In this document: positions 7,780 through 20,821 of the stretch, piece by piece
Layout: each line of letters opens with the position of its first letter
How positions within the stretch are numbered: position 1 is the stretch's first letter
Source of the DNA: Escherichia coli
GTDB lineage: Bacteria; Pseudomonadota; Gammaproteobacteria; Enterobacterales; Enterobacteriaceae
Direction: 5' to 3' (one strand)
NCBI RefSeq assembly: GCF_013315695.1
Contig: NZ_CP054353.1
DNA: 64,000 bases
Translations under genes and position numbers: made by a program
The notes under the pieces: generated by a model
What the model was told of the DNA's origin: nothing
The model's input: only the letters and a program-made list of their open reading frames with translations
Database searches by the model: none

Positions 7780-8022
7780 ATGATCGAAGCCTACAAAATA
7801 CTTATCAATAACGCGTTGCAACGTTATCACTTTGAACTCGCAAACCGGGGCGTAACTAAGGATGAAAGCCTTCGTAACTCACTGCGCGGCGCAATTATGG
7901 GGCTATACAACTGCGCACTGGGCAGCGATGACCGTGAAGCGCTGGAAGAATTAAAGTCGATTATGACAGAACTGTTTGAAGGTGAAATTGTTGAGCCTTA
8001 CTTCACAGGGGTAGCCGCATGA
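7780..8022 (+). CDS. Hypothetical early protein (80 aa)
   Basis: Clean ORF with SD aaggattcagcc-ATG. Confidence 0.6.
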   Translation: MIEAYKILINNALQRYHFELANRGVTKDESLRNSLRGAIMGLYNCALGSDDREALEELKSIMTELFEGEIVEPYFTGVAA

Positions 8023-8144
8023 GCATATTTCTTTCATGGGTAATTCTGATTATCTCCGTGCTTATGGCAATCGGCATTATGCGAATTATCTACACACTGA
8101 AGGATATCGAATTATTCTTTACCGGCGATAAACGCCGTAAATAA
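8019..8144 (+). CDS. Small single-TM protein (41 aa)
   Basis: ATGA overlap with the preceding stop. MSIFLSWVILIISVLMAIGIMRIIYTLKDIELFFTGDKRRK. Below the ORF-track size cutoff. Confidence 0.4.
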   Translation: MSIFLSWVILIISVLMAIGIMRIIYTLKDIELFFTGDKRRK

Positions 8145-8156
8145 AGCGAAAACCTT

Positions 8157-8252
8157 ATGAAGAATGTAAAAGCAATACTCACCATCGCCACTGTATGGGT
8201 GATATTTCAGGTGAGTGCGCTTATCTGGTTAGCCCTGAAGATCTGGGAATAA
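8157..8252 (+). CDS. Possible 31-aa hydrophobic peptide
   Basis: MKNVKAILTIATVWVIFQVSALIWLALKIWE. No clear SD. Confidence 0.25.
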   Translation: MKNVKAILTIATVWVIFQVSALIWLALKIWE

Positions 8253-8357
8253 CCTGAAGCCGAAAGCAGGCGCGGAATAACACCAGAAAACACACGAGCA
8301 ATTAATTAAGGCATTCATGCCTTCGGGTTCCCTTTGTCTTTTTTCAGGAGTCAACAA

Positions 8358-8588
8358 ATGAGAACAGCCGAATCACCCGGCAGAAAAATAACCGCCAGAC
8401 CAGCTAACCATCATGCACATATCAGCATTGCCGCAAGAAAAGCCGAGCGTGCGCATATCTGCGAATTGCTGCATGACCTGGTTAACACAGCGAGAGAGAA
8501 GCACACCTCCCCGGAGGAAACCTGTTCATCCATTGAACGACTGATTGCAATACTCGCCAACCCAGACGAACTGAAGGGGTGCGCATAA
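8358..8588 (+). CDS. Hypothetical early protein (76 aa)
   Basis: ATG with SD caggag. Its stop overlaps the next start (TAATG). Confidence 0.55.
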   Translation: MRTAESPGRKITARPANHHAHISIAARKAERAHICELLHDLVNTAREKHTSPEETCSSIERLIAILANPDELKGCA

Positions 8589-12666: not shown

Positions 12667-13083
12667 ATGAAGAGCGTTAAGGGACTTTCAGATATTCAGG
12701 ACTTCTTTAACTGGATGTGGGCGGTGGATCCCCTGCTGGCTTCCCGCCTGAACAACTGGCACGACTATTACCGCCGCGCCTGTAAACAGGCTGCCCGCAG
12801 CGTCACCACATACGGGGATTTCTCCTTCACCGTGGACGGTCGTTACCGCGTGGACGTGAAAGGTGATGGTGATGGACTGGGTTTATTTCACATCAACGGC
12901 ACCGACAGTACCGCCATCAGCTGGTCGTCATCAGAGATGGCGCTGGTTCTGGAAATGACAACCCACAGCGTGGCCGTGAAAGGTATATACACCGCAGAAG
13001 GTTTTATCGGCGAATACCAGCGCCTTCTCGTGCTGTACCGCGCGGCGTTTCAGGTGGCAACTGCCGGGGAGTGCGACGCATGA
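12667..13083 (+). CDS. Hypothetical early protein (138 aa), intact copy
   Basis: SD ggaggt. The stop overlaps the gpA start (ATGA). Confidence 0.65.
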   Translation: MKSVKGLSDIQDFFNWMWAVDPLLASRLNNWHDYYRRACKQAARSVTTYGDFSFTVDGRYRVDVKGDGDGLGLFHINGTDSTAISWSSSEMALVLEMTTHSVAVKGIYTAEGFIGEYQRLLVLYRAAFQVATAGECDA

Positions 13084-15593
13084 GCGACCATAACGCACAA
13101 CTGGCGTACCCGTGGAACGCCCCGCTACCGGTTATCGATCCTGAAACGTTCGGCAGAGCACAGCCAACCGCATTACGCCAGGCCATTCAGAGCTACATCA
13201 ACGAGGACATTCGCATTGATGCCAGACTGGATGAAGAAACCGTCGCCTTTCTGACAACCACAGACGAAGGGAAGCGAATTAATTCGCACCTTCACCACAA
13301 CGAAGAGCGTCGGATCAGACTGGAAAAACTGGCGCGGCACAAACGCGAGAATCCGCCCACGGTGGTATCGGAAGCCATGGCAGAACTTCGCGCCCTGCCC
13401 TCGTTTCTTGGCAACGCGCTCATTCGTGATCTGGCGCGTTTAAACCGCAAACAGCAAAGCGCCCGCCATGAAGGCGTGAAAAACAACAATACACACGTGG
13501 CTGATAACTTTGTTCGCCGTGGACTGCGCACACGCCTGAAACGCATCGAACAGGTGAATGAATGCTTCGCCACGACGGCATTCAAAGCCACCGCAGCACG
13601 CCATCGCCTTGATGAATTACTCATGCTGCCACAACTCAACCGTGATCAAATTCAGCGCCTTGCCACACTAACGGCGGCGGCATTTTCCACCGAACTGGAA
13701 CGCATATGTGATGAAGTTACTGAGCGGACAGGAAAAGGCGACGATAACCTGTTTACCTGGTTGCTGACTTACCAGCAGCTGGCGCGCATGGCAATAAAAC
13801 TGGGCGTGAACCCACCATACTGGCCGTCACTCGAGATCAGACGTGACCGCCGCACGGCACCAGACCCTGAACTGGTACCGGGCGCGGTAATGCGTATCAC
13901 CTGCGCCACCTGGTGGAACAACCAGCTGCGCCACCTCGCTGATCTCTGGCGGGAGGAATTACTGCGTGCCGCCGGAAGAGTATCGCGCAAGGCATCCCCC
14001 TACATCAGCCATGAGTCACTCCAGGAATTCCGGGAGAAACGCCAGCGCACCCGTGATTTTCTCAAAAGCTGGGACATTGAAAACGAAGACGGTGAACGCC
14101 TGAGCCTGGAGGACGTGTACTGGTCAGGGCTGGGGAATCCGCGCAACCGCCGCAACGAGATGATGGCCTGCGTCAGAGGGATGGAACAGGTCGCCGAATC
14201 GCGTGGTGACTCCGCGTTCTTCGTGACAGTGACCTGCCCTTCCCGCTTTCACAGCGTAAACGAGGACGGCAGCCTGAACCCGAAATACAACGGTGCCACC
14301 GTGCGCGATGCCAGTGATTATCTGGTTTACGACGTCTTTGCAGCTGCAAGAAAAAAACTCAACAAAGAAGGCCTGAGCTGGTACGGGGTGCGCACCGTTG
14401 AGCCACACCATGACGGCACACCGCACTGGCACATGCTGGTATTCACCGCCCCGGACAATGAAGAACGCATCATTGAAATCATGCGTGACGCAGCAATCAA
14501 ATCAGATCGCGCAGAACTGGGGAATGATATTTCTCCGCGCTTCAAGTGCGAAAAAATCGACCCGGCAAAAGGCACACCGGCAAGCTACATCGCAACCTAT
14601 ATTGGCAAGAACCTGGACGCCAGCACCTTTCACGACAATGACCCGAAAACCGGCAAACCTTACGCCGATAAAGAATCGGGAAAAACCATGGCGGAAACCG
14701 TGGAAAACGCCATTGCCTGGGCGAGTCTCCACCGCATCCGGCAGTTCCAGTTCTTCGGTATCCCGCCCCGCCAGGTATGGCGTGAACTCCGCCGCCTTGC
14801 CGGACAAATGGAGCGTAACCCCGCATCACCGAAGCGCCTGGACCATGACGACATTGACGCCATTCTGGCCGCCGCTGACGTGGGGTGTTTTGCCACCTAC
14901 ATCAACCGTCAGGGCGGCGTGCTCATTCCACGCAACCTGTACCTGATCCGCACCGCATACGAAACCGCAGATGAGGCCAACGACTACGGCGAATTCCCGC
15001 AGCGCATCTACGGAATTTGTGCCCCGTCGCTCGGCGAGCGCTACACCATCTGCACCCATCCGGACGAGTGGAAACTGGTCAGAAAAGAAGCGAAAGCCGA
15101 CAACAGCACGGACGAGGATTTTGACGTTGGGGGCGGCTTCGCCGCACCTTGGACTCGTGGCAATAACTGTCGCCATGATGAAAAAACAGACACCGAAGAG
15201 GGTAAAAACCCACCACCGGAAACCAGGAAAGAACAAAAACTGGTCGTCCCGGAAGGTGATTTGGGCGAGTGGTTAAGGTCACTGACCCCCACAGAGCGAA
15301 AACAACTCACCAGGCAGCTGAAAGATGCGCCATCTGACACAAAAACCGTGAAAACCGGCGGCCCCACCACGCCCGATGACGTCATACATGTGCGTACCGC
15401 ATTGCCGCTGGCTGACGTCACCACCACCGTGATCAAGTCGGCACTGAGCACGACGGGCGAGGAGCTGCACAGTGGCGCGGCACTTTCCGTACACAGAGGT
15501 GCACGCGTTCGCCTGCCTGACGGGCGGATTGTGCACTGGGATGAGAAATCACGAAGCCTGGTGGCAGCAGATCAACCGGAGGTGAACCCATGA
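13080..15593 (+). CDS. gpA: Rolling-circle replication initiator endonuclease, P2 gpA family
   Basis: Motifs AYPWNAP, VEPHHDGTPHWHMLVF (HUH) and YIATYIGKN (catalytic Tyr pair) as in P2 A. Start MSDHNAQ is coupled to the upstream stop. Confidence 0.93.
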   Translation: MSDHNAQLAYPWNAPLPVIDPETFGRAQPTALRQAIQSYINEDIRIDARLDEETVAFLTTTDEGKRINSHLHHNEERRIRLEKLARHKRENPPTVVSEAMAELRALPSFLGNALIRDLARLNRKQQSARHEGVKNNNTHVADNFVRRGLRTRLKRIEQVNECFATTAFKATAARHRLDELLMLPQLNRDQIQRLATLTAAAFSTELERICDEVTERTGKGDDNLFTWLLTYQQLARMAIKLGVNPPYWPSLEIRRDRRTAPDPELVPGAVMRITCATWWNNQLRHLADLWREELLRAAGRVSRKASPYISHESLQEFREKRQRTRDFLKSWDIENEDGERLSLEDVYWSGLGNPRNRRNEMMACVRGMEQVAESRGDSAFFVTVTCPSRFHSVNEDGSLNPKYNGATVRDASDYLVYDVFAAARKKLNKEGLSWYGVRTVEPHHDGTPHWHMLVFTAPDNEERIIEIMRDAAIKSDRAELGNDISPRFKCEKIDPAKGTPASYIATYIGKNLDASTFHDNDPKTGKPYADKESGKTMAETVENAIAWASLHRIRQFQFFGIPPRQVWRELRRLAGQMERNPASPKRLDHDDIDAILAAADVGCFATYINRQGGVLIPRNLYLIRTAYETADEANDYGEFPQRIYGICAPSLGERYTICTHPDEWKLVRKEAKADNSTDEDFDVGGGFAAPWTRGNNCRHDEKTDTEEGKNPPPETRKEQKLVVPEGDLGEWLRSLTPTERKQLTRQLKDAPSDTKTVKTGGPTTPDDVIHVRTALPLADVTTTVIKSALSTTGEELHSGAALSVHRGARVRLPDGRIVHWDEKSRSLVAADQPEVNP

Positions 15594-16213: not shown

Positions 16214-16548
16214 AGACACCCAGAATGACCGGAAAGGAAATCATTTTACGCTACCTGAAAACGCACGCACGCTTCAGCGCACCAGAGCTGGTTGAAAAAC
16301 TGGGCGTGAAAAGGACCGTCATTAATCAGGCTGCCGGAAAGATGGTGCGCGAAGGGCTGCTGGTTGTGGATGGGTACACGGACAAGATAACGCATTACCG
16401 GAAGCCAACGAAAAAGGAGCTGCGGGAGCTGAAACGACGGGCAGAATGGCAACAGGAGCCGTCAGTAATTGAAGCCTGCAAGCGCAGCGAAATCATGAAG
16501 AGAATTCTGTTTATCTACGGCGCTGGCGAAGAGCTGCCCGTCATCTGA
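16210..16548 (+). CDS. Winged-helix DNA-binding protein (112 aa)
   Basis: MKTPRMTGKEIILRYLKTHARFSAPELVEKLGVKRTVINQAAGKMVREGLL is wHTH-like. ATGA overlap with the upstream gene. Confidence 0.55.
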   Translation: MKTPRMTGKEIILRYLKTHARFSAPELVEKLGVKRTVINQAAGKMVREGLLVVDGYTDKITHYRKPTKKELRELKRRAEWQQEPSVIEACKRSEIMKRILFIYGAGEELPVI

Positions 16549-16580
16549 ACCCAACAATAAAACCAACACGGGAGACAAAT

Positions 16581-16898
16581 ATGCCAACACAGGTTGCAAC
16601 AGAGGGACGACTGGCAGCAGACCCGAACACAAGGAGAACAGCCAAAGGTACCAGCGTCACAACAGCACAACTGGCGGTATCACTACCCTGCCATGGCGCA
16701 GAACAGCCAACCACAATGTGGCTTTACCTTATCGCGTTCGGGAAGCAACACGAAGAACTGGCAAAACACAGAAAAGGCGATCTGATCCTGGTGCACGGGA
16801 ACTTGCAGGTAAACAGGTATCAGGACAAGTACGAGCAACAGAAAGAGGGCTGGCAGCTGCTGACGCAAAGCATTATCAGCTCAAGAACCGGGCGATGA
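16581..16898 (+). CDS. Short SSB-like OB-fold protein
   Basis: 105 aa. The pattern GRLAADPNTRRTAKGTSVTTAQLAV...WLYLIAFGKQHEELAKHRKGDLILVHGNLQ is typical of ssDNA-binding OB folds. Confidence 0.6.
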   Translation: MPTQVATEGRLAADPNTRRTAKGTSVTTAQLAVSLPCHGAEQPTTMWLYLIAFGKQHEELAKHRKGDLILVHGNLQVNRYQDKYEQQKEGWQLLTQSIISSRTGR

Positions 16899-16908
16899 CT
16901 TCACGCAT

Positions 16909-16934
16909 GTTACCCTCAGCAGCGAGGGTAACAC
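16909..16934 (+). terminator. Early-operon terminator
   Basis: tgttaccctc-agcagc-gagggtaaca followed by a T-rich run. Confidence 0.55.
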
Positions 16935-16947
16935 AGGATTTCTTTTT

Positions 16948-17592
16948 TCAGTCAAACCGAAATCGGCCGCTTGTCGCGTATGCATAGGTGACCACCGCAC
17001 CCAGCGCATTCACACGCTTCTTCACATAAATCACATTACCATCCTGATAGTCACCGTATGGGTAGCAAATAAAGATTGTTTTTTGCAAATCAGGATCATC
17101 AACAAATGCCCCTGAACAACTTTTTGAGCTACCGCGACTGTACTCATAGGGAGCGGAATAGAATGAATCTTCACCCGGAAGAAAATATATCAGCGTAACC
17201 AGGAGGGTAAACAGAATCATCCAGGTAAGAAGGCACATACCCGAAAAAAACTTAAGATACGATGTAACCCCGGTAAATTTAGACCGATCAACCAGGTTCT
17301 TTTTCAACAGGCACAGTGAGACAAAAACCGAAAGCACCACAGACACTGAAACAAGGCAGTTTGTCGTGAACGAATAAAGGTAGGTAATTCTGTAAACATC
17401 GTTTCGCCACCAAATAAAAAGAAAAATCCCCCCCAAAACAGAAAGCGTGACAAAAGTTAAATAAGGATATGAGTAATTTTTCACAGTTCTCACCCGGCAA
17501 TACACCACTGATTCAGACAGATGATTATCATCACCACCCACCCCCAAAAATCGCAAGATAAAAAATGCACAAAAGCGCACGAAATTGCACAA
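16948..17592 (-). CDS. AT-rich cargo gene: 3-TM membrane protein with a ~75-aa soluble C-terminal domain
   Basis: 214-aa ORF. A GTG at 17483 with a ggtga SD is a more likely start. Lies next to cos, the position of old/tin in P2, on the strand opposite the phage operons. Confidence 0.6.
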   Translation of the reverse strand: MCNFVRFCAFFILRFLGVGGDDNHLSESVVYCRVRTVKNYSYPYLTFVTLSVLGGIFLFIWWRNDVYRITYLYSFTTNCLVSVSVVLSVFVSLCLLKKNLVDRSKFTGVTSYLKFFSGMCLLTWMILFTLLVTLIYFLPGEDSFYSAPYEYSRGSSKSCSGAFVDDPDLQKTIFICYPYGDYQDGNVIYVKKRVNALGAVVTYAYATSGRFRFD

Positions 17593-17688
17593 TTTTTCTT
17601 ATGTGTTTCATCCCCATTCAGCCCAGTAACGGCGCTGGCTGAGGCCGGTTTGCACGGTGCACGAAAAACGAGGCAATTGCAGCGCGCA

Positions 17689-17707
17689 GGCGACGAGGGA
17701 AGGGCGC
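17689..17707. other. Putative P2-type cos cohesive-end sequence
   Basis: GGCGACGAGGGAAGGGCGC resembles the 19-nt P2/186 cohesive ends (GGCGAGGCGGGGAAAGCAC, as remembered; 13/19). It lies just upstream of the portal operon, as in P2. Confidence 0.45.
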
Positions 17708-18038
17708 CCGAATTGAGGGGTGGAAGGCAGGTTGCTTTATTTGGGGTCGTATTGCGCGTGATACGCACGCAGTGAAGCCGGTTCTGAAAAAACCACACCG
17801 AAACAGAGTCAGAAAAACAGGCCGCCAGAATGCGTCTGGTTGAGTTTTACGGGGTCGGGATTAAATGCGGAAACATCACACCGCAGGCATGACGCGAAAA
17901 AGAGAAAAACCACAGCAAAACATAATGTTAAATGTTATTGATGAGTTGAGAAGCGAGAGGTGTATTGCGTTGACAGAGCTGGAGAGTCGGGGCATAAATT
18001 TTTTATGCCCCGGCGAAGCAGCCGACAAGCGAAGCGCG

Positions 18039-19082
18039 TCAGCTGGCGTTATCCTGAAGCAACGCATAGGGGTTAAAGCGCATTACCTCGCTTCCCAGCC
18101 ATTCATTGACATGCTTCATGGCCTCCATGACAGGTTGCAGCTCGTTGATGAAAAACACCCTCGCCGCTTTCTCAACGTCACCGAGCGCCGCGTTCCCGTC
18201 AGGCATTGCCCCCATCAGCTGAGGCGGTACACGGTGAGCCGCAAGGATATCGTCACGGGCGGTACCCTTGATGTTAAGGAATTCGTCCTTCGCGGTGATT
18301 TGCTGGAACGGCAGTATTTGCACACCATCCTTGCCGCCACCTGGCGCGTGCAGAAGGATATTGCGGAACGCCCCCTTGCCACGGGATTCCGTGAGGGTTT
18401 TCTTTACCGCCTCCACGCTTTCAGCGTTTGCCTGGGCGGCCCCGACATAGACAATGCACCCGGCATGTGAGCCGTTGTCATAGTAGAGCTTGCGGAACGT
18501 GTCCGCCGAGTTCGACAGGCTCACCGACAGCAGCCCACCGATATACTCCGGCATCCCGTAGATTTCCTGGTTGATATCAGGGTTCAGAACATGGCACACA
18601 GCCCCCTTCCGGAACGCGAATTCAGAACCATCATCATTGAGGTACCAGTACGTATCGAGATCACTGCCCCGCCGCGTGTATTTCGCCAGCGCCGGGCGGA
18701 GCGCAATGGGCTCACCGAACCTGTTACGGCGCACCTCAAGATAGGCATTACCGAACACAAACCAGTCGAGTGCAAACGCTGAAAACGCCTGGCGGGACAG
18801 GAGCGGATGAGGAACAAAGCACCCGTTCAGGGCGTTGCGCTTAAAATACAGGGCCGACTGGTGCCATGACGCACGACGGGAGGCGCGAGCAATGGCGTTC
18901 CAGTCCATGGGGGTGTCATAGTAGCGGCCATTATCGGCGCACGACATATTATCAAGAAGATCAAGACGGCTTGCTTCATAAGGACCGTCAAACGTGAAAG
19001 CACTGAGTGACGGCGCTGATTTCAGTGCATCGGCCAGTGAGCCCGTGCCGCGCTTTCCGGTGTATTTTTTACGTTTACTCAT
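18039..19082 (-). CDS. gpQ: Portal protein (P2 gpQ family)
   Basis: 347 aa, at the P2 Q position, transcribed together with the terminase. Confidence 0.9.
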   Translation of the reverse strand: MSKRKKYTGKRGTGSLADALKSAPSLSAFTFDGPYEASRLDLLDNMSCADNGRYYDTPMDWNAIARASRRASWHQSALYFKRNALNGCFVPHPLLSRQAFSAFALDWFVFGNAYLEVRRNRFGEPIALRPALAKYTRRGSDLDTYWYLNDDGSEFAFRKGAVCHVLNPDINQEIYGMPEYIGGLLSVSLSNSADTFRKLYYDNGSHAGCIVYVGAAQANAESVEAVKKTLTESRGKGAFRNILLHAPGGGKDGVQILPFQQITAKDEFLNIKGTARDDILAAHRVPPQLMGAMPDGNAALGDVEKAARVFFINELQPVMEAMKHVNEWLGSEVMRFNPYALLQDNAS

Positions 19083-19087
19083 TGTGT

Positions 19088-20821
19088 TCAGAACTCCATT
19101 GCAAAGCCACGATTATCCTCACGCTCTGCGCCGATTGGCTCATTGATAACAGCAAGCATGGTTGCCCAGGCGAGATCACCATGACTGACACCCCGGGAGC
19201 GGTCAGTGTCATAGGTGATATAGCCGCCGGGCGTCTGTATTTTTCGCACCGATGAAAATGCCTGTATCAGGTCGCGTTCGCTGCGGTCATACTCCCACCG
19301 TCCGGCGCGGACCACCTGAAGCATCTTCATGACCAGCGCCCGTTTGGACGCGATATTGAAGTTGTACGGAACAGCCAGGGGGAAGAGCTTTTTCACAATC
19401 TGATAAACCCCTTCGCCGTTACCACCGGTCACATCAATACCAATATGTTTCACGTTATATTTCTTCGTGTACTCCTCGATCAGGGCAGCTTGTTGTTCAA
19501 ACTCCATACCCTGAACCCTGACTGTCTCCACCGTGCGAAAACGCCCACCGGCAACAAGGGGTGGCACGCACACCGACAGCGCCCCGCAGTCCCCTTTCCC
19601 GCTGCTGCCGTTGGCATCATAGCCAAGCCAGACCTCCCGAACGCCCATCGGACGGGACGCAAAAGGTTTCCAGTCAGGCCATTCATCGTAACCATCCACG
19701 CCGCAGCCGATGAGCGCATTCAGGCTGAAGGCCGCCTCACCATCACGGACAAATTCGCACATGTACAGATTGCGAAATTCACTTTCTGTATTCTCATCGC
19801 GAATATCATCAATACTGGTGAACTGCCATCCGTTAGCGACAGCATCCTCGATAGTGACAATCTGCCGCCACGTTTTATCGGGAAAGAGCACGCCCCCCTT
19901 CAGGTGGGCATGTGAAACATCAAATTCATTGCGTTTTGAGCGCGGCCGCTCGCTGTTCCAGCGGTCCCCTGTCCAGAACTGATACGCCTCATGCGTCTCA
20001 CCTGACGGCGTAGAGAAGTAAGTGCGCGTAAGCCCTTTCAGCGTCGCCATTGCCCCGGCAACCTTCCTGAGGTTCACAAAGTTACTGACCCAGAAAAATT
20101 CGTCGAATTTCAGATGACCGGTATAGGACTGCGCGGTGGCAGCTGACGTACCGAGGAAGTGCAGCTCGGCACCGTTGGACAGCACAATTTTGTCGCCGCC
20201 TTTGAGCTCAACATCCACCTCCTGAGCAGCCTGCTGAATGAAATGCTTGAACTGATACGCCTGACGACGGGAGGCGGACAAAAATATCTGGTTGCGCTGA
20301 TACCCGGCGGAGACATCATCACGCAGTGCATCAAGGAGCGCCTCGCGCGCAAAATACCAGGTCGCACCAATCTGACGCGACTTCAGGATCATGCGGTTGC
20401 GGTGGTGGCGGTTTTCGTACCATTCGCGTTGATGCCAGGCCAGTGACGGCAGGATTTTTTCCCTGAGCGCAGCAATCTGTTCTTCGGTGAAGTGATTTTT
20501 CAGTCTGCGTTTACGGGGCTTTTTACCGGAAACGGCATGCTCTCCCTGACTGTCATTCAGTTTTTTCAGCTGGCGCGTGAGAAGGTCAATTTCCTTAAAA
20601 TCGCTGCCGCTTTTCTCTGTTTTTGTGGTGAGCTGGATGAGGCGCGCATCAATGGACTGGGTGACCCGCTGGATCGGGGGGGTGGCATCCCACTCATCGC
20701 GTTTTTTCCATGAGTAAATCGTGTTCTGGCTGATCCCCATCAGTTGCGAGATTTCCGCAGGCGTGTACCCTTGCCAGTAAAGTTGTCTCGCTCCTATGCG
20801 GACAAATGCATCCTGAATCAT
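19088..20821 (-). CDS. gpP: Terminase large (ATPase) subunit (P2 gpP family)
   Basis: 577 aa. The N-terminus ...LYWQGYTPAEISQLMGISQNTIYSWKKRDEWD is as in P2 P. Confidence 0.93.
   Translation of the reverse strand: MIQDAFVRIGARQLYWQGYTPAEISQLMGISQNTIYSWKKRDEWDATPPIQRVTQSIDARLIQLTTKTEKSGSDFKEIDLLTRQLKKLNDSQGEHAVSGKKPRKRRLKNHFTEEQIAALREKILPSLAWHQREWYENRHHRNRMILKSRQIGATWYFAREALLDALRDDVSAGYQRNQIFLSASRRQAYQFKHFIQQAAQEVDVELKGGDKIVLSNGAELHFLGTSAATAQSYTGHLKFDEFFWVSNFVNLRKVAGAMATLKGLTRTYFSTPSGETHEAYQFWTGDRWNSERPRSKRNEFDVSHAHLKGGVLFPDKTWRQIVTIEDAVANGWQFTSIDDIRDENTESEFRNLYMCEFVRDGEAAFSLNALIGCGVDGYDEWPDWKPFASRPMGVREVWLGYDANGSSGKGDCGALSVCVPPLVAGGRFRTVETVRVQGMEFEQQAALIEEYTKKYNVKHIGIDVTGGNGEGVYQIVKKLFPLAVPYNFNIASKRALVMKMLQVVRAGRWEYDRSERDLIQAFSSVRKIQTPGGYITYDTDRSRGVSHGDLAWATMLAVINEPIGAEREDNRGFAMEF

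What the first reader, a model, noticed from the sequence alone, without database searches (positions are those of the whole stretch)
16948..17688. Low-GC membrane-protein cargo at the cos-proximal (old/tin-equivalent) hotspot
In P2 the segment between the replication genes and cos carries the anti-phage genes old and tin. In P2-like phages it is a known variable locus for defence cargo. Here that slot holds one markedly AT-rich, opposite-strand gene. The gene encodes three predicted TM helices (YLTFVTLSVLGGIFLFIWW, CLVSVSVVLSVFVSLCLL, MCLLTWMILFTLLVTLIYFL) and a ~75-aa Tyr/Gly/Asp-rich soluble tail (…YPYGDYQDGNVIYVKKRVNALGAVVTYAYATSGRFRFD). It lies between the early-operon terminator (16909-16934) and the putative cos (17689-17707). 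I recognise no family. A single-gene membrane effector here is a plausible uncharacterised exclusion or abortive-infection determinant.
Basis: partly seen in the sequence, partly recalled or inferred. Interest (0 to 1): 0.6.

Follow-up and report, generated by a model that had tools for sequence, protein, structure and literature searches.

The report
Uncharacterised membrane gene in P2 hotspot
A P2-like prophage carries, in its known slot for anti-phage cargo next to cos, a real but uncharacterised 178-residue inner-membrane protein with a folded periplasmic domain; relatives sit in several kinds of temperate phage and in 17% of complete E. coli genomes, and its function (most plausibly blocking phage entry at the envelope) is untested.

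Summary
The gene is real but shorter than reported. The CDS is 16948-17484 (-), 178 aa, with a GTG start. It is not 16948-17688. GC is 0.42 against 0.55 in the flanks. It lies between the early-operon terminator and the cos region of a P2-like prophage, on the same strand and in the same slot as P2 old/tin. It belongs to a small family with no known function (PHROG 1416; 56 clusters at 50% identity), seen here only in Enterobacterales. It has no Pfam, NCBIfam, PADLOC or PDB match. AlphaFold2 (pLDDT 93.5) gives three TM helices capped by a five-stranded, weakly OB-like beta domain. Charge distribution and two near-invariant cysteines place that domain in the periplasm, and it is the best-conserved part. 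The gene moves as a single-gene module. I found it in the gpA-gpQ slot of five P2-like lineages, in the xis-exo region of lambdoid phages (434, O157 CP-933K; 915 of 5426 E. coli genomes), in a Q-holin slot in Providencia, and at a fixed, GC-ameliorated chromosomal locus in Enterobacter. Envelope-level phage exclusion is the best guess (about 0.37). An abortive-infection effector is less likely. A non-phage envelope role remains open. Nothing has been tested experimentally.

The parts
16948..17484 (-). CDS, 178 aa plus stop, GTG start (MKNYSYPYL...RFRFD). Identical to RefSeq WP_000801013.1.
   Evidence: ORF listing. PGAP annotation of a 100%-identical copy. The start is fixed by the conserved N-terminus in homologues.
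17182..17484 (-). Membrane region, residues 1-101. Three TM helices (6-29, 38-61, 73-101). Short periplasmic loop 1 with a beta strand (34-36). Lys/Arg-rich cytoplasmic loop 2 (61-81).
   Evidence: AlphaFold2 model, pLDDT 93.5. Family-wide charge counts: loop 2 averages +4.3/-0.9.
16951..17181 (-). C-terminal domain, residues 102-178. Five-stranded beta domain with conserved motifs LPG, SCSG, DPDL, ICYP and KRSNxLG, and two near-invariant cysteines (C123 at 17116-17118, C140 at 17065-17067). Predicted to be periplasmic.
   Evidence: Exactly two Cys in this domain in 24 of 25 members. Identity to the window protein is 45-66% here against 16-50% in the TM region for 12 of the 13 compared homologues (the Providencia copy: 24% against 20%). 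Weak OB-fold matches only.
17428..17434 (-). G7 homopolymer inside codons L17-G18-G19. It is the site of the only frameshifts seen among near-identical copies.
   Evidence: G8 in one copy of NZ_CP116067 and G9 in NZ_CP075652. The best-matching copy is exact across the 76-bp stretch holding the tract in 18 of the 21 genomes that carry it (25 copies in all).
17485..17565 (-). Leader and putative promoter of the gene. It contains a -10-like element (GATGATAAT, about 17522-17532) that aligns with TG-n-TAAATT-like elements 55-62 nt upstream of the start in most homologous loci.
   Evidence: Alignment A4 of eight upstream regions. This is inference. The consensus promoter scan found nothing here.
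17566..17592 (-). Three direct repeats with a 10-bp period (TTGTGCA / TCGTGCG / TTGTGCA), plus a further copy at 17658-17664. This is P2-type backbone, not cargo. In P2 the equivalent (A/T)ATGCA repeats lie just upstream of, and overlap, the likely -35 of the old-tin promoter.
   Evidence: Also present in phiT5282H, which carries IetAS instead. Old-tin transcript starts as annotated in NC_001895.
17689..17707 (.). Putative cohesive-end (cos) sequence GGCGACGAGGGAAGGGCGC.
   Evidence: It aligns with P2 cosR (GGCGAGGCGGGGAAAGCAC) and with the equivalent conserved block in other P2-like loci. Cleavage is not shown.
16908..16948 (+). Hairpin (10-bp stem, 16908-16933) followed by a U-run. Intrinsic terminator of the early operon. 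On the minus strand the same hairpin follows the gene's stop codon but has no U-run.
   Evidence: -18.7 and -20.3 kcal/mol, z = -4.2 and -4.5.

Best explanation
The gene is a self-contained, horizontally mobile accessory ('moron') module of temperate phages. I infer that it is expressed from the prophage, from a promoter next to cos. It encodes an inner-membrane protein with a three-helix anchor and a small, disulfide-stabilised beta domain sitting on the periplasmic face.

My most likely mechanism is superinfection or heterotypic exclusion at the envelope. The conserved periplasmic face would bind either a conserved host inner-membrane or periplasmic factor that incoming phages need for genome delivery, or the phage's own trans-periplasmic delivery apparatus. 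Entry of foreign phage DNA would then be blocked without killing the cell.

Shown: the gene model, the locus, the mobility between phage slots, and the absence of any conserved partner gene. Predicted: the architecture, the topology and the pattern of conservation. Inferred: expression in lysogens, anti-phage activity, the step that is blocked and the target.
For: Locus: the gene occupies the gpA-cos-gpQ hotspot, on the same strand and with the same cos-proximal geometry as P2 old/tin. A relative with the same flanks carries IetA/IetS there.

Recurrence: family members occupy the same slot in four further P2-like lineages, in E. coli, Salmonella, Klebsiella and Enterobacter, each with different neighbouring cargo.

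Mobility: the same single gene also sits on the opposite strand within the xis-exo region of lambdoid phages 434, mEp332 and 2B8, and in a Q-holin slot of a Providencia prophage. No partner gene is conserved across these contexts.

Retention: the lambdoid allele is present in 915 of 5426 complete E. coli genomes. In an O157:H7 cryptic prophage it is intact even though int is frameshifted and bet is truncated.

Architecture: the model is confident (pLDDT 93.5, pTM 0.83). Positive-inside charges put the N-terminus and loop 2 in the cytoplasm and the C-domain outside. Two near-invariant Cys fit an oxidising compartment. Only about 28 residues are cytoplasmic, and conservation is concentrated in loop 1 and the C-domain. 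Any activity must therefore be exerted at the membrane or in the periplasm.

Precedent: P22 SieA is a prophage-expressed, 162-164-aa, three-TM inner-membrane protein that blocks DNA injection (PMC10883804).

Base rate: 3 of 8 further P2-hotspot systems gave defence, and 6 of 8 unknown P4-hotspot loci did (PMC13586616).
Against: There is no experimental evidence of any kind. No hit to PADLOC, Pfam or NCBIfam. No homology to SieA (hhalign probability 1.6%). No significant structural neighbour.

The periplasmic domain appears to be under strong purifying selection rather than diversifying. That is unusual for an arms-race interface, although it fits a conserved host target.

In Enterobacter the gene is a GC-ameliorated chromosomal resident at a fixed locus among GGDEF/EAL and LysR genes, and it is single and non-prophage in Citrobacter and Pseudescherichia. 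This suggests a function that is not tied to phages.

Machine-learning screens score only 15-32% of unknown P2-hotspot proteins as antiviral. Expression in lysogens is not shown, and the promoter call is weak.
Confidence: 0.37

Rival explanations
1. The gene is an envelope 'lysogenic-conversion' or housekeeping-type factor that is not aimed at phages. The periplasmic domain would bind or neutralise something else at the inner-membrane surface, such as a periplasm-acting bacteriocin, a T6SS or contact-dependent effector, a lysozyme-like enzyme or a cell-wall intermediate. It could also modulate a host membrane complex. Phages would carry it because it raises the fitness of the lysogen.
For: Chromosomal, GC-ameliorated copies (GC 0.50-0.535 against 0.505-0.56 in the flanks) sit at the same GGDEF-adjacent locus in four Enterobacter species. 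Single non-prophage copies occur in Citrobacter and Pseudescherichia. The periplasmic domain is strongly conserved. The gene is retained intact in a decayed O157 prophage. No defence-model hit. P2 hotspots also hold non-defence cargo such as ParM/StbB and toxin-antitoxin genes.
Against: No toxin or effector gene is adjacent in any context examined. No similarity to any known immunity or inhibitor family in Pfam. The phage-borne copies repeatedly land in slots that are enriched for anti-phage genes.
Confidence: 0.3
2. The gene is an abortive-infection effector. The three-helix bundle would oligomerise into a pore or otherwise depolarise the inner membrane when a periplasmic or membrane cue of infection is sensed, killing the cell before phage release.
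For: Transmembrane proteins in known defence systems are usually regarded as suicide effectors (Rousset 2022). The gene has the hotspot location, and a single-gene module could in principle combine sensor (periplasmic domain) and effector (TM bundle).
Against: No sensor or partner gene is conserved. Cytoplasmic mass is almost nil, so cytoplasmic infection cues cannot be read. The TM helices are the least conserved part. The gene persists in 17% of complete E. coli genomes, in cryptic prophages and as a stable chromosomal gene. Four genomes carry two copies.
Confidence: 0.12
3. The protein serves the carrier phage's own life cycle at the envelope, for example by modulating lysis timing or holin action, or by helping its own DNA entry or exit, rather than acting on competitors.
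For: In Providencia the homologue lies directly upstream of the holin-endolysin-spanin cassette in the late operon. In P2-like phages it is co-directional with the late P-Q operon.
Against: It is absent from most P2-like and lambdoid phages, including P2 and lambda, and occupies variable accessory slots. Two strong hairpins at the place of P2's annotated tQ terminator separate it from Q. It also exists outside prophages.
Confidence: 0.06

Closest known systems
P2 old and tin (cos-proximal lysogenic-conversion genes of phage P2)
   Same: Same slot between the replication gene A region and cos. Same strand relative to A, Q and P. Transcribed away from cos, from a promoter that lies about 150 bp from the cohesive end next to the same 10-bp-period repeats. 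AT-rich accessory cargo.
   Different: No sequence relationship. By the P2 record's own annotation, Old is an AAA family ATPase and exonuclease; that Old and Tin are cytoplasmic proteins is my own knowledge, not tested here. This protein is an integral inner-membrane protein whose conserved part faces the periplasm.
P22 SieA (superinfection exclusion A)
   Same: A prophage-encoded single gene for a protein of about 165-178 aa, with three predicted TM helices and no signal peptide, located in the inner membrane. SieA blocks DNA injection (PMC10883804). It is the best functional analogy.
   Different: No detectable homology (hhalign probability 1.6%). The conserved SieA motif FxRYPxEAxxFNK is predicted to be cytoplasmic and is absent here. 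This family instead has a 77-residue, two-cysteine beta domain outside the membrane. SieA sits in the immI region of P22-like phages.
Short-form NfeD proteins (such as E. coli YbbJ and B. subtilis YuaF). Recalled from my own knowledge as a lead.
   Same: The overall architecture is about 150-175 aa, with three N-terminal TM helices followed by a small five-stranded OB-type beta barrel. An 'NfeD-like C-terminal domain' protein appears among the weak Foldseek matches (rank 18).
   Different: No member of the family hits Pfam NfeD. No SPFH/stomatin partner gene lies next to it in any locus. The predicted topology is opposite, with the domain outside and carrying a conserved Cys pair.
PHROG 1416 (phage protein family of unknown function)
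   Same: The C-terminal 90 residues match the whole 90-position profile at E = 1e-49.
   Different: The PHROG profile covers only TM3 and the beta domain. Full-length members have 165-190 residues and three TM helices. Short entries look like truncated or frameshifted gene calls. The profile adds no functional information.

Membership tests
Cargo of the P2-like gpA-gpQ (cos-proximal) hotspot (Rousset et al. 2022) | Lies between the replication endonuclease gpA region and the portal gpQ, adjacent to cos | tested here: met
   A at 13071-15593, the gene at 16948-17484, the cos-like site at 17689-17707 and Q at 18039-19082. WP_000801013 is listed in Table S5 of that paper.
Cargo of the P2-like gpA-gpQ (cos-proximal) hotspot (Rousset et al. 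2022) | Content of the slot varies between related phages while the flanks are conserved | tested here: met
   The same flanking cos-side sequence holds IetA/IetS in phiT5282H. Other P2-like loci add ParM/StbB, YafO or an AAA_16 pair. Only 21-28 of 5426 E. coli genomes have this allele.
Cargo of the P2-like gpA-gpQ (cos-proximal) hotspot (Rousset et al. 2022) | Confers anti-phage activity | not testable with these tools
   This needs plating assays. No published test was found.
Known anti-phage defence systems (PADLOC-DB 2.0.0) | Significant match to a defence-protein HMM | tested here: not met
   0 families at E <= 1.
P22 SieA superinfection-exclusion family | Sequence or profile homology to SieA, including the conserved C-terminal FxRYPxEAxxFNK motif | tested here: not met
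   hhalign of the family profile against P22 SieA gave probability 1.6%. The motif is absent from the alignment. tblastn against 50,697 phage records hit only 434, 2B8 and mEp332.
P22 SieA superinfection-exclusion family | Small inner-membrane protein with three TM helices, encoded by a prophage as a single gene | tested here: inconclusive
   The three TM helices and single-gene mobility are supported. Membrane localisation and expression from the prophage are predicted, not shown.
NfeD (short form) | Pfam NfeD (PF01957) match and an adjacent SPFH/stomatin gene | tested here: not met
   No NfeD hit for any of 25 members. No Band_7/SPFH neighbour in any context.
PHROG 1416 | Significant match to the family profile | tested here: met
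   E = 1.2e-49, residues 125-214 of the long ORF against positions 1-90 of 90.
Abortive-infection TM effector modules | A conserved sensor or partner gene, or a cytoplasmic sensing domain, coupled to the TM effector | tested here: not met
   No partner is conserved across the loci examined. Only about 28 residues are cytoplasmic.

The most novel reading that the evidence does not exclude
This may be the founding member of an unrecognised class of single-gene, periplasm-facing phage-entry blockers: a three-helix anchor plus a disulfide-bonded OB-like cap. On this reading temperate phages captured it from an Enterobacter-type chromosomal gene and then passed it from the P2 hotspot into lambdoid phages. 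The 434 and O157 copies still carry decayed P2 cos-side repeats upstream. It would act on a conserved host factor, so that one small protein protects 17% of complete E. coli genomes, including O157:H7 and O104:H4 strains, against a broad set of phages.
Probability: 0.28. Interest if true: 0.65.

Novelty: new variant of a known kind. Interest (0 to 1): 0.45.

Why it matters
If it does block phage entry, it would be a new and very compact single-gene exclusion family. It has a confidently predicted fold and no relative among characterised proteins. Its lambdoid allele is present in 17% of complete E. coli genomes, including O157:H7 and O104:H4 strains. That bears on phage-therapy host range and on how prophages shape susceptibility. 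The chromosomal Enterobacter copies would make it a clear case of a host envelope gene recruited as phage cargo. If it is not anti-phage, it remains a widespread conserved periplasmic module of unknown function that can be studied easily: it is one gene of 537 bp. At present it is an unannotated 'hypothetical' already listed in a published hotspot table, so the finding is a candidate rather than a discovery.

Tried and rejected
Sequence and structure searches with no useful result:
- Pfam, NCBIfam and PADLOC gave nothing meaningful for the protein or for 25 family members.
- A profile search of all PDB sequences returned only TM noise.
- Foldseek against PDB and BFVD found nothing at E <= 0.001. 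The weak hits are OB folds.
- The AFDB library was unavailable.
- The first AlphaFold2 run, with a shallow alignment, was poor (pLDDT 65) and was replaced.

Gene-model and partner ideas rejected:
- The TTG start at 17592, and any extension to 17688, because the upstream 36 codons are not conserved.
- The 56-aa 'membrane protein' ORF annotated upstream of the gene in 434 and mEp332 as a partner. It overlies the decayed P2-type repeats and promoter and has no counterpart elsewhere.
- Short (80-125 aa) family hits as a one-TM variant. They look like fragments or frameshift products.
- The 3074-aa repeat protein P0092. It is repeat noise with no informative domain.

Leads from memory that were not supported:
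- An Ogr-type late promoter (TGT-N12-ACA) in the repeats. The match is imperfect, and the element is shared with P2's old-tin promoter region.
- An MliC/PliC-like 'SxSGA' motif. No Pfam MliC hit.
- NfeD, as described above.

Other:
- The genome scan with the diverse alignment A2 failed for lack of a conserved stretch and was rerun with A3.
- Literature searches for the RefSeq accessions, mEp332, phrog_1416 and the EDL933/Sakai locus tags gave nothing on function. The supplements of DefensePredictor and Vassallo 2022 do not list the protein.
- Rfam found nothing in 16400-18200.

Full report
**1. What is in the sequence**

The minus strand carries an ORF that ends at 16948. Its longest form starts at TTG 17592 and has 214 aa. 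RefSeq annotates a 100%-identical copy in E. coli MSB1_4I as a 537-nt CDS, WP_000801013.1. This corresponds to window 16948-17484 with a GTG start. Homologues at 22-58% identity all begin at the same point with MK(N/K)xSYPYL, and the upstream 36 codons are not conserved. The gene is therefore 178 aa, not the roughly 246 codons implied by 16948-17688.

Its GC content is 0.42 against 0.55 for the +/-4 kb flanks.

The surroundings are a P2-like prophage, in this order:
- replication endonuclease A, 13071-15593
- small early genes, a MarR-like gene and an SSB-like gene, 16581-16898
- a strong hairpin with a U-run, 16908-16948
- the gene
- a cos-like 19-mer, 17689-17707
- portal Q (18039-19082) and terminase P (19088-20821), both on the minus strand

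The P2 reference has the same layout, with tin and old on the minus strand and the old-tin transcript starting about 150 bp from cosR. 'Opposite strand' is therefore true only with respect to the early operon. The gene runs the same way as P, Q, old and tin.

**2. Where the cargo ends**

Window 17565-17701 is 73% identical to Enterobacter phage phiT5282H. That phage has IetA/IetS in the same slot. An alignment of the window, P2, phiT5282H and two other P2-like loci shows three conserved features:
- the cos block
- a lone TGCA motif
- three direct repeats with a 10-bp period (window 17566-17592: TTGTGCA, TCGTGCG, TTGTGCA)

The sequences diverge after these repeats. In P2 the equivalent repeats run into the likely -35 of the old-tin promoter (transcript starts as annotated). 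The cargo is thus about 16935-17565, and 17566-17707 is backbone.

Downstream of the repeats, most homologous loci share a -10-like element of the form TG-n-TAAATT, 55-62 nt before the start codon. This includes phage 434 and a chromosomal Citrobacter copy. The window has GATGATAAT at the aligned position. This is my best guess for the gene's own promoter. The generic scan did not call one, so expression remains an inference.

**3. The protein**

There is no Pfam, NCBIfam or PADLOC match. PHROG 1416 (unknown function) matches the C-terminal 90 residues at E = 1e-49.

An exhaustive profile search of 1.84 billion cluster representatives found only 56 relatives. The full-length ones examined have 152-202 residues and the same layout. 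None has a functional name.

With a 25-sequence alignment, AlphaFold2 gives pLDDT 93.5 and pTM 0.83. The model has:
- helices 6-29, 38-61 and 73-101
- a short strand (34-36) in loop 1
- a five-stranded domain (105-171)

Across the family, loop 2 carries +4.3/-0.9 charges on average, the N-terminus +1.7/-0.2 and loop 1 +1.8/-1.0. By the positive-inside rule this places the N-terminus and loop 2 in the cytoplasm, and loop 1 and the C-domain in the periplasm. The model agrees in placing a loop-1 strand (34-36) alongside the C-domain strands. The C-domain has exactly two cysteines in 24 of 25 members. C140 is invariant and C123 nearly so. This fits a periplasmic disulfide.

Conservation is concentrated outside the membrane. 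The C-domain is 45-66% identical to the window protein where the TM region is 16-50%, for 12 of the 13 compared homologues; the distant Providencia copy is the exception at 24% against 20%. Only about 28 residues are cytoplasmic.

**4. Where relatives live**

(a) The same gpA-gpQ slot, in the same orientation, in other P2-like prophages:
- E. coli, 58% identity, with ParM/StbB
- Salmonella, 52%, with YafO or small ORFs
- Klebsiella michiganensis, with an AAA_16 pair
- Enterobacter hormaechei

(b) Lambdoid phages 434, mEp332 and 2B8, between xis and exo, on the strand opposite to the pL operon. This allele is in 915 of 5426 complete E. coli genomes, including O157:H7 and O104:H4. In O157:H7 Xuzhou21 it is intact inside a prophage at the ybhC site whose int is frameshifted and whose bet is truncated.

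(c) A lambdoid prophage of Providencia, between the antiterminator Q and the holin.

(d) Non-prophage chromosomal sites:
- Four Enterobacter species carry it at the same place, next to a GGDEF gene. Its GC content equals that of the flanks.
- Citrobacter and Pseudescherichia copies are single genes among housekeeping genes.
- The Klebsiella sp. R390 copy likewise has no phage-gene matches in its flanks.

No neighbouring gene is shared across these contexts. The 434 copy still has a decayed version of the P2 repeats, followed by a promoter region almost identical to that of one P2-like allele. This suggests transfer from a P2 hotspot into lambdoid phages.

**5. What it most likely does**

The shown facts are these: an accessory module that hops between three different accessory slots of temperate phages, that sits in a slot documented to hold anti-phage genes (PMC9122126), and whose product can act only at the membrane or in the periplasm.

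The best analogy is P22 SieA. It is a 162-164-aa, three-TM inner-membrane protein that blocks DNA injection (PMC10883804). There is no homology to it, and its conserved motif is on the other side of the membrane.

I therefore favour envelope-level exclusion of incoming phages, at confidence of about 0.37. A conserved host target would be the simplest way to reconcile this with the strong purifying selection on the periplasmic domain.

The main rival, at about 0.30, is an envelope function unrelated to phages. The ameliorated, fixed-locus Enterobacter copies support it.

A classical abortive-infection effector is less likely, at about 0.12. There is no sensor, almost no cytoplasmic part, the TM helices are the least conserved part, and the gene is stably carried in many genomes, sometimes in two copies.

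A role in the carrier phage's own cycle is unlikely, at about 0.06.

**6. Prior knowledge and novelty**

WP_000801013 already appears, as 'hypothetical', in the list of P2 hotspot loci in Rousset et al. 2022, Table S5. It was not among the systems tested there. I found no paper on the gene.

It is a sequence- and fold-distinct family within a known category (prophage accessory envelope proteins and hotspot cargo). I rate it a new variant of a known kind. It is of moderate interest as a cheap and widely distributed candidate, not as a surprise.

Noticed in passing
window 17566-17592 and 17658-17664 (minus strand): Three direct repeats of TTGTGCA-like heptamers with an exact 10-bp period, plus a fourth copy nearer cos. 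They are conserved in P2 (as ATGCA repeats abutting the likely -35 of the old-tin promoter), in phiT5282H and in other P2-like loci whatever the cargo. They survive in decayed form upstream of the 434 and mEp332 homologue. They could be a regulator or terminase binding array at the hotspot boundary. They also mark the direction of transfer, from P2-like to lambdoid phages.
   Followed up: partly
window 17973-18043: A 71-bp element just 3' of the portal stop codon is 95-99% identical in about 370 complete E. coli genomes and in P88-like phages, although most of those portal genes are only about 72% identical to this one. It folds into two strong hairpins (z = -4.0) at the position of P2's annotated tQ terminator. 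In ETEC6, STEC17-183 and SCU-106 an unrelated 167-175-aa plus-strand gene is inserted between this element and Q, so there is a second cargo sub-slot between cos and Q. The element is a possible recombination anchor.
   Followed up: partly
window 17428-17434: A G7 tract sits in codons 17-19 of the gene. The only indels seen among near-identical copies are G8 (second copy in NZ_CP116067) and G9 (NZ_CP075652). Both are frameshifts and both copies are unannotated. In 18 of the 21 genomes that carry the allele, the best-matching copy is exact across the tract. This could be slippage-prone decay or on/off switching, or it could be homopolymer assembly error. Other alleles lack the tract.
   Followed up: partly
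E. coli genomes NZ_CP075697, NZ_CP116067, NZ_AP045180, NZ_LR898874: Four complete genomes carry two copies of this allele at two places each (25 places in 21 genomes in all).
   Followed up: no
L013-L016 (Enterobacter spp.), about 8001-8510 of each locus: A family member is a GC-ameliorated chromosomal gene at one conserved site, convergent with a 594-aa HAMP-GGDEF gene and near an EAL-GGDEF gene, a LysR regulator and tqsA. This may be the ancestral, non-phage home of the family.
   Followed up: partly
L007 (Enterobacter phage phiT5282H) 666-3949: The genes annotated as 'FtsH' and 'hypothetical protein' in the same hotspot match the IetA and IetS defence models (E = 2e-88 and 2e-41). This is a known system in the slot of a close backbone relative.
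   Followed up: yes
window 17521-17775 (+) and 17865-18470 (+): An 84-aa ORF spanning the cos region is annotated as a hypothetical protein by PGAP in one genome (WP_447310369.1, L002). A 201-aa ORF overlaps the portal gene on the other strand. Both look spurious: they run across backbone or cos sequence, or antisense to Q.
   Followed up: no
L003 4755-4925 (phage 434) and L004 1632-1802 (mEp332): The 56-aa 'putative membrane protein' annotated upstream of the homologue overlies the decayed P2-type repeats and the promoter region. It has no counterpart in other loci and is probably not a gene.
   Followed up: yes
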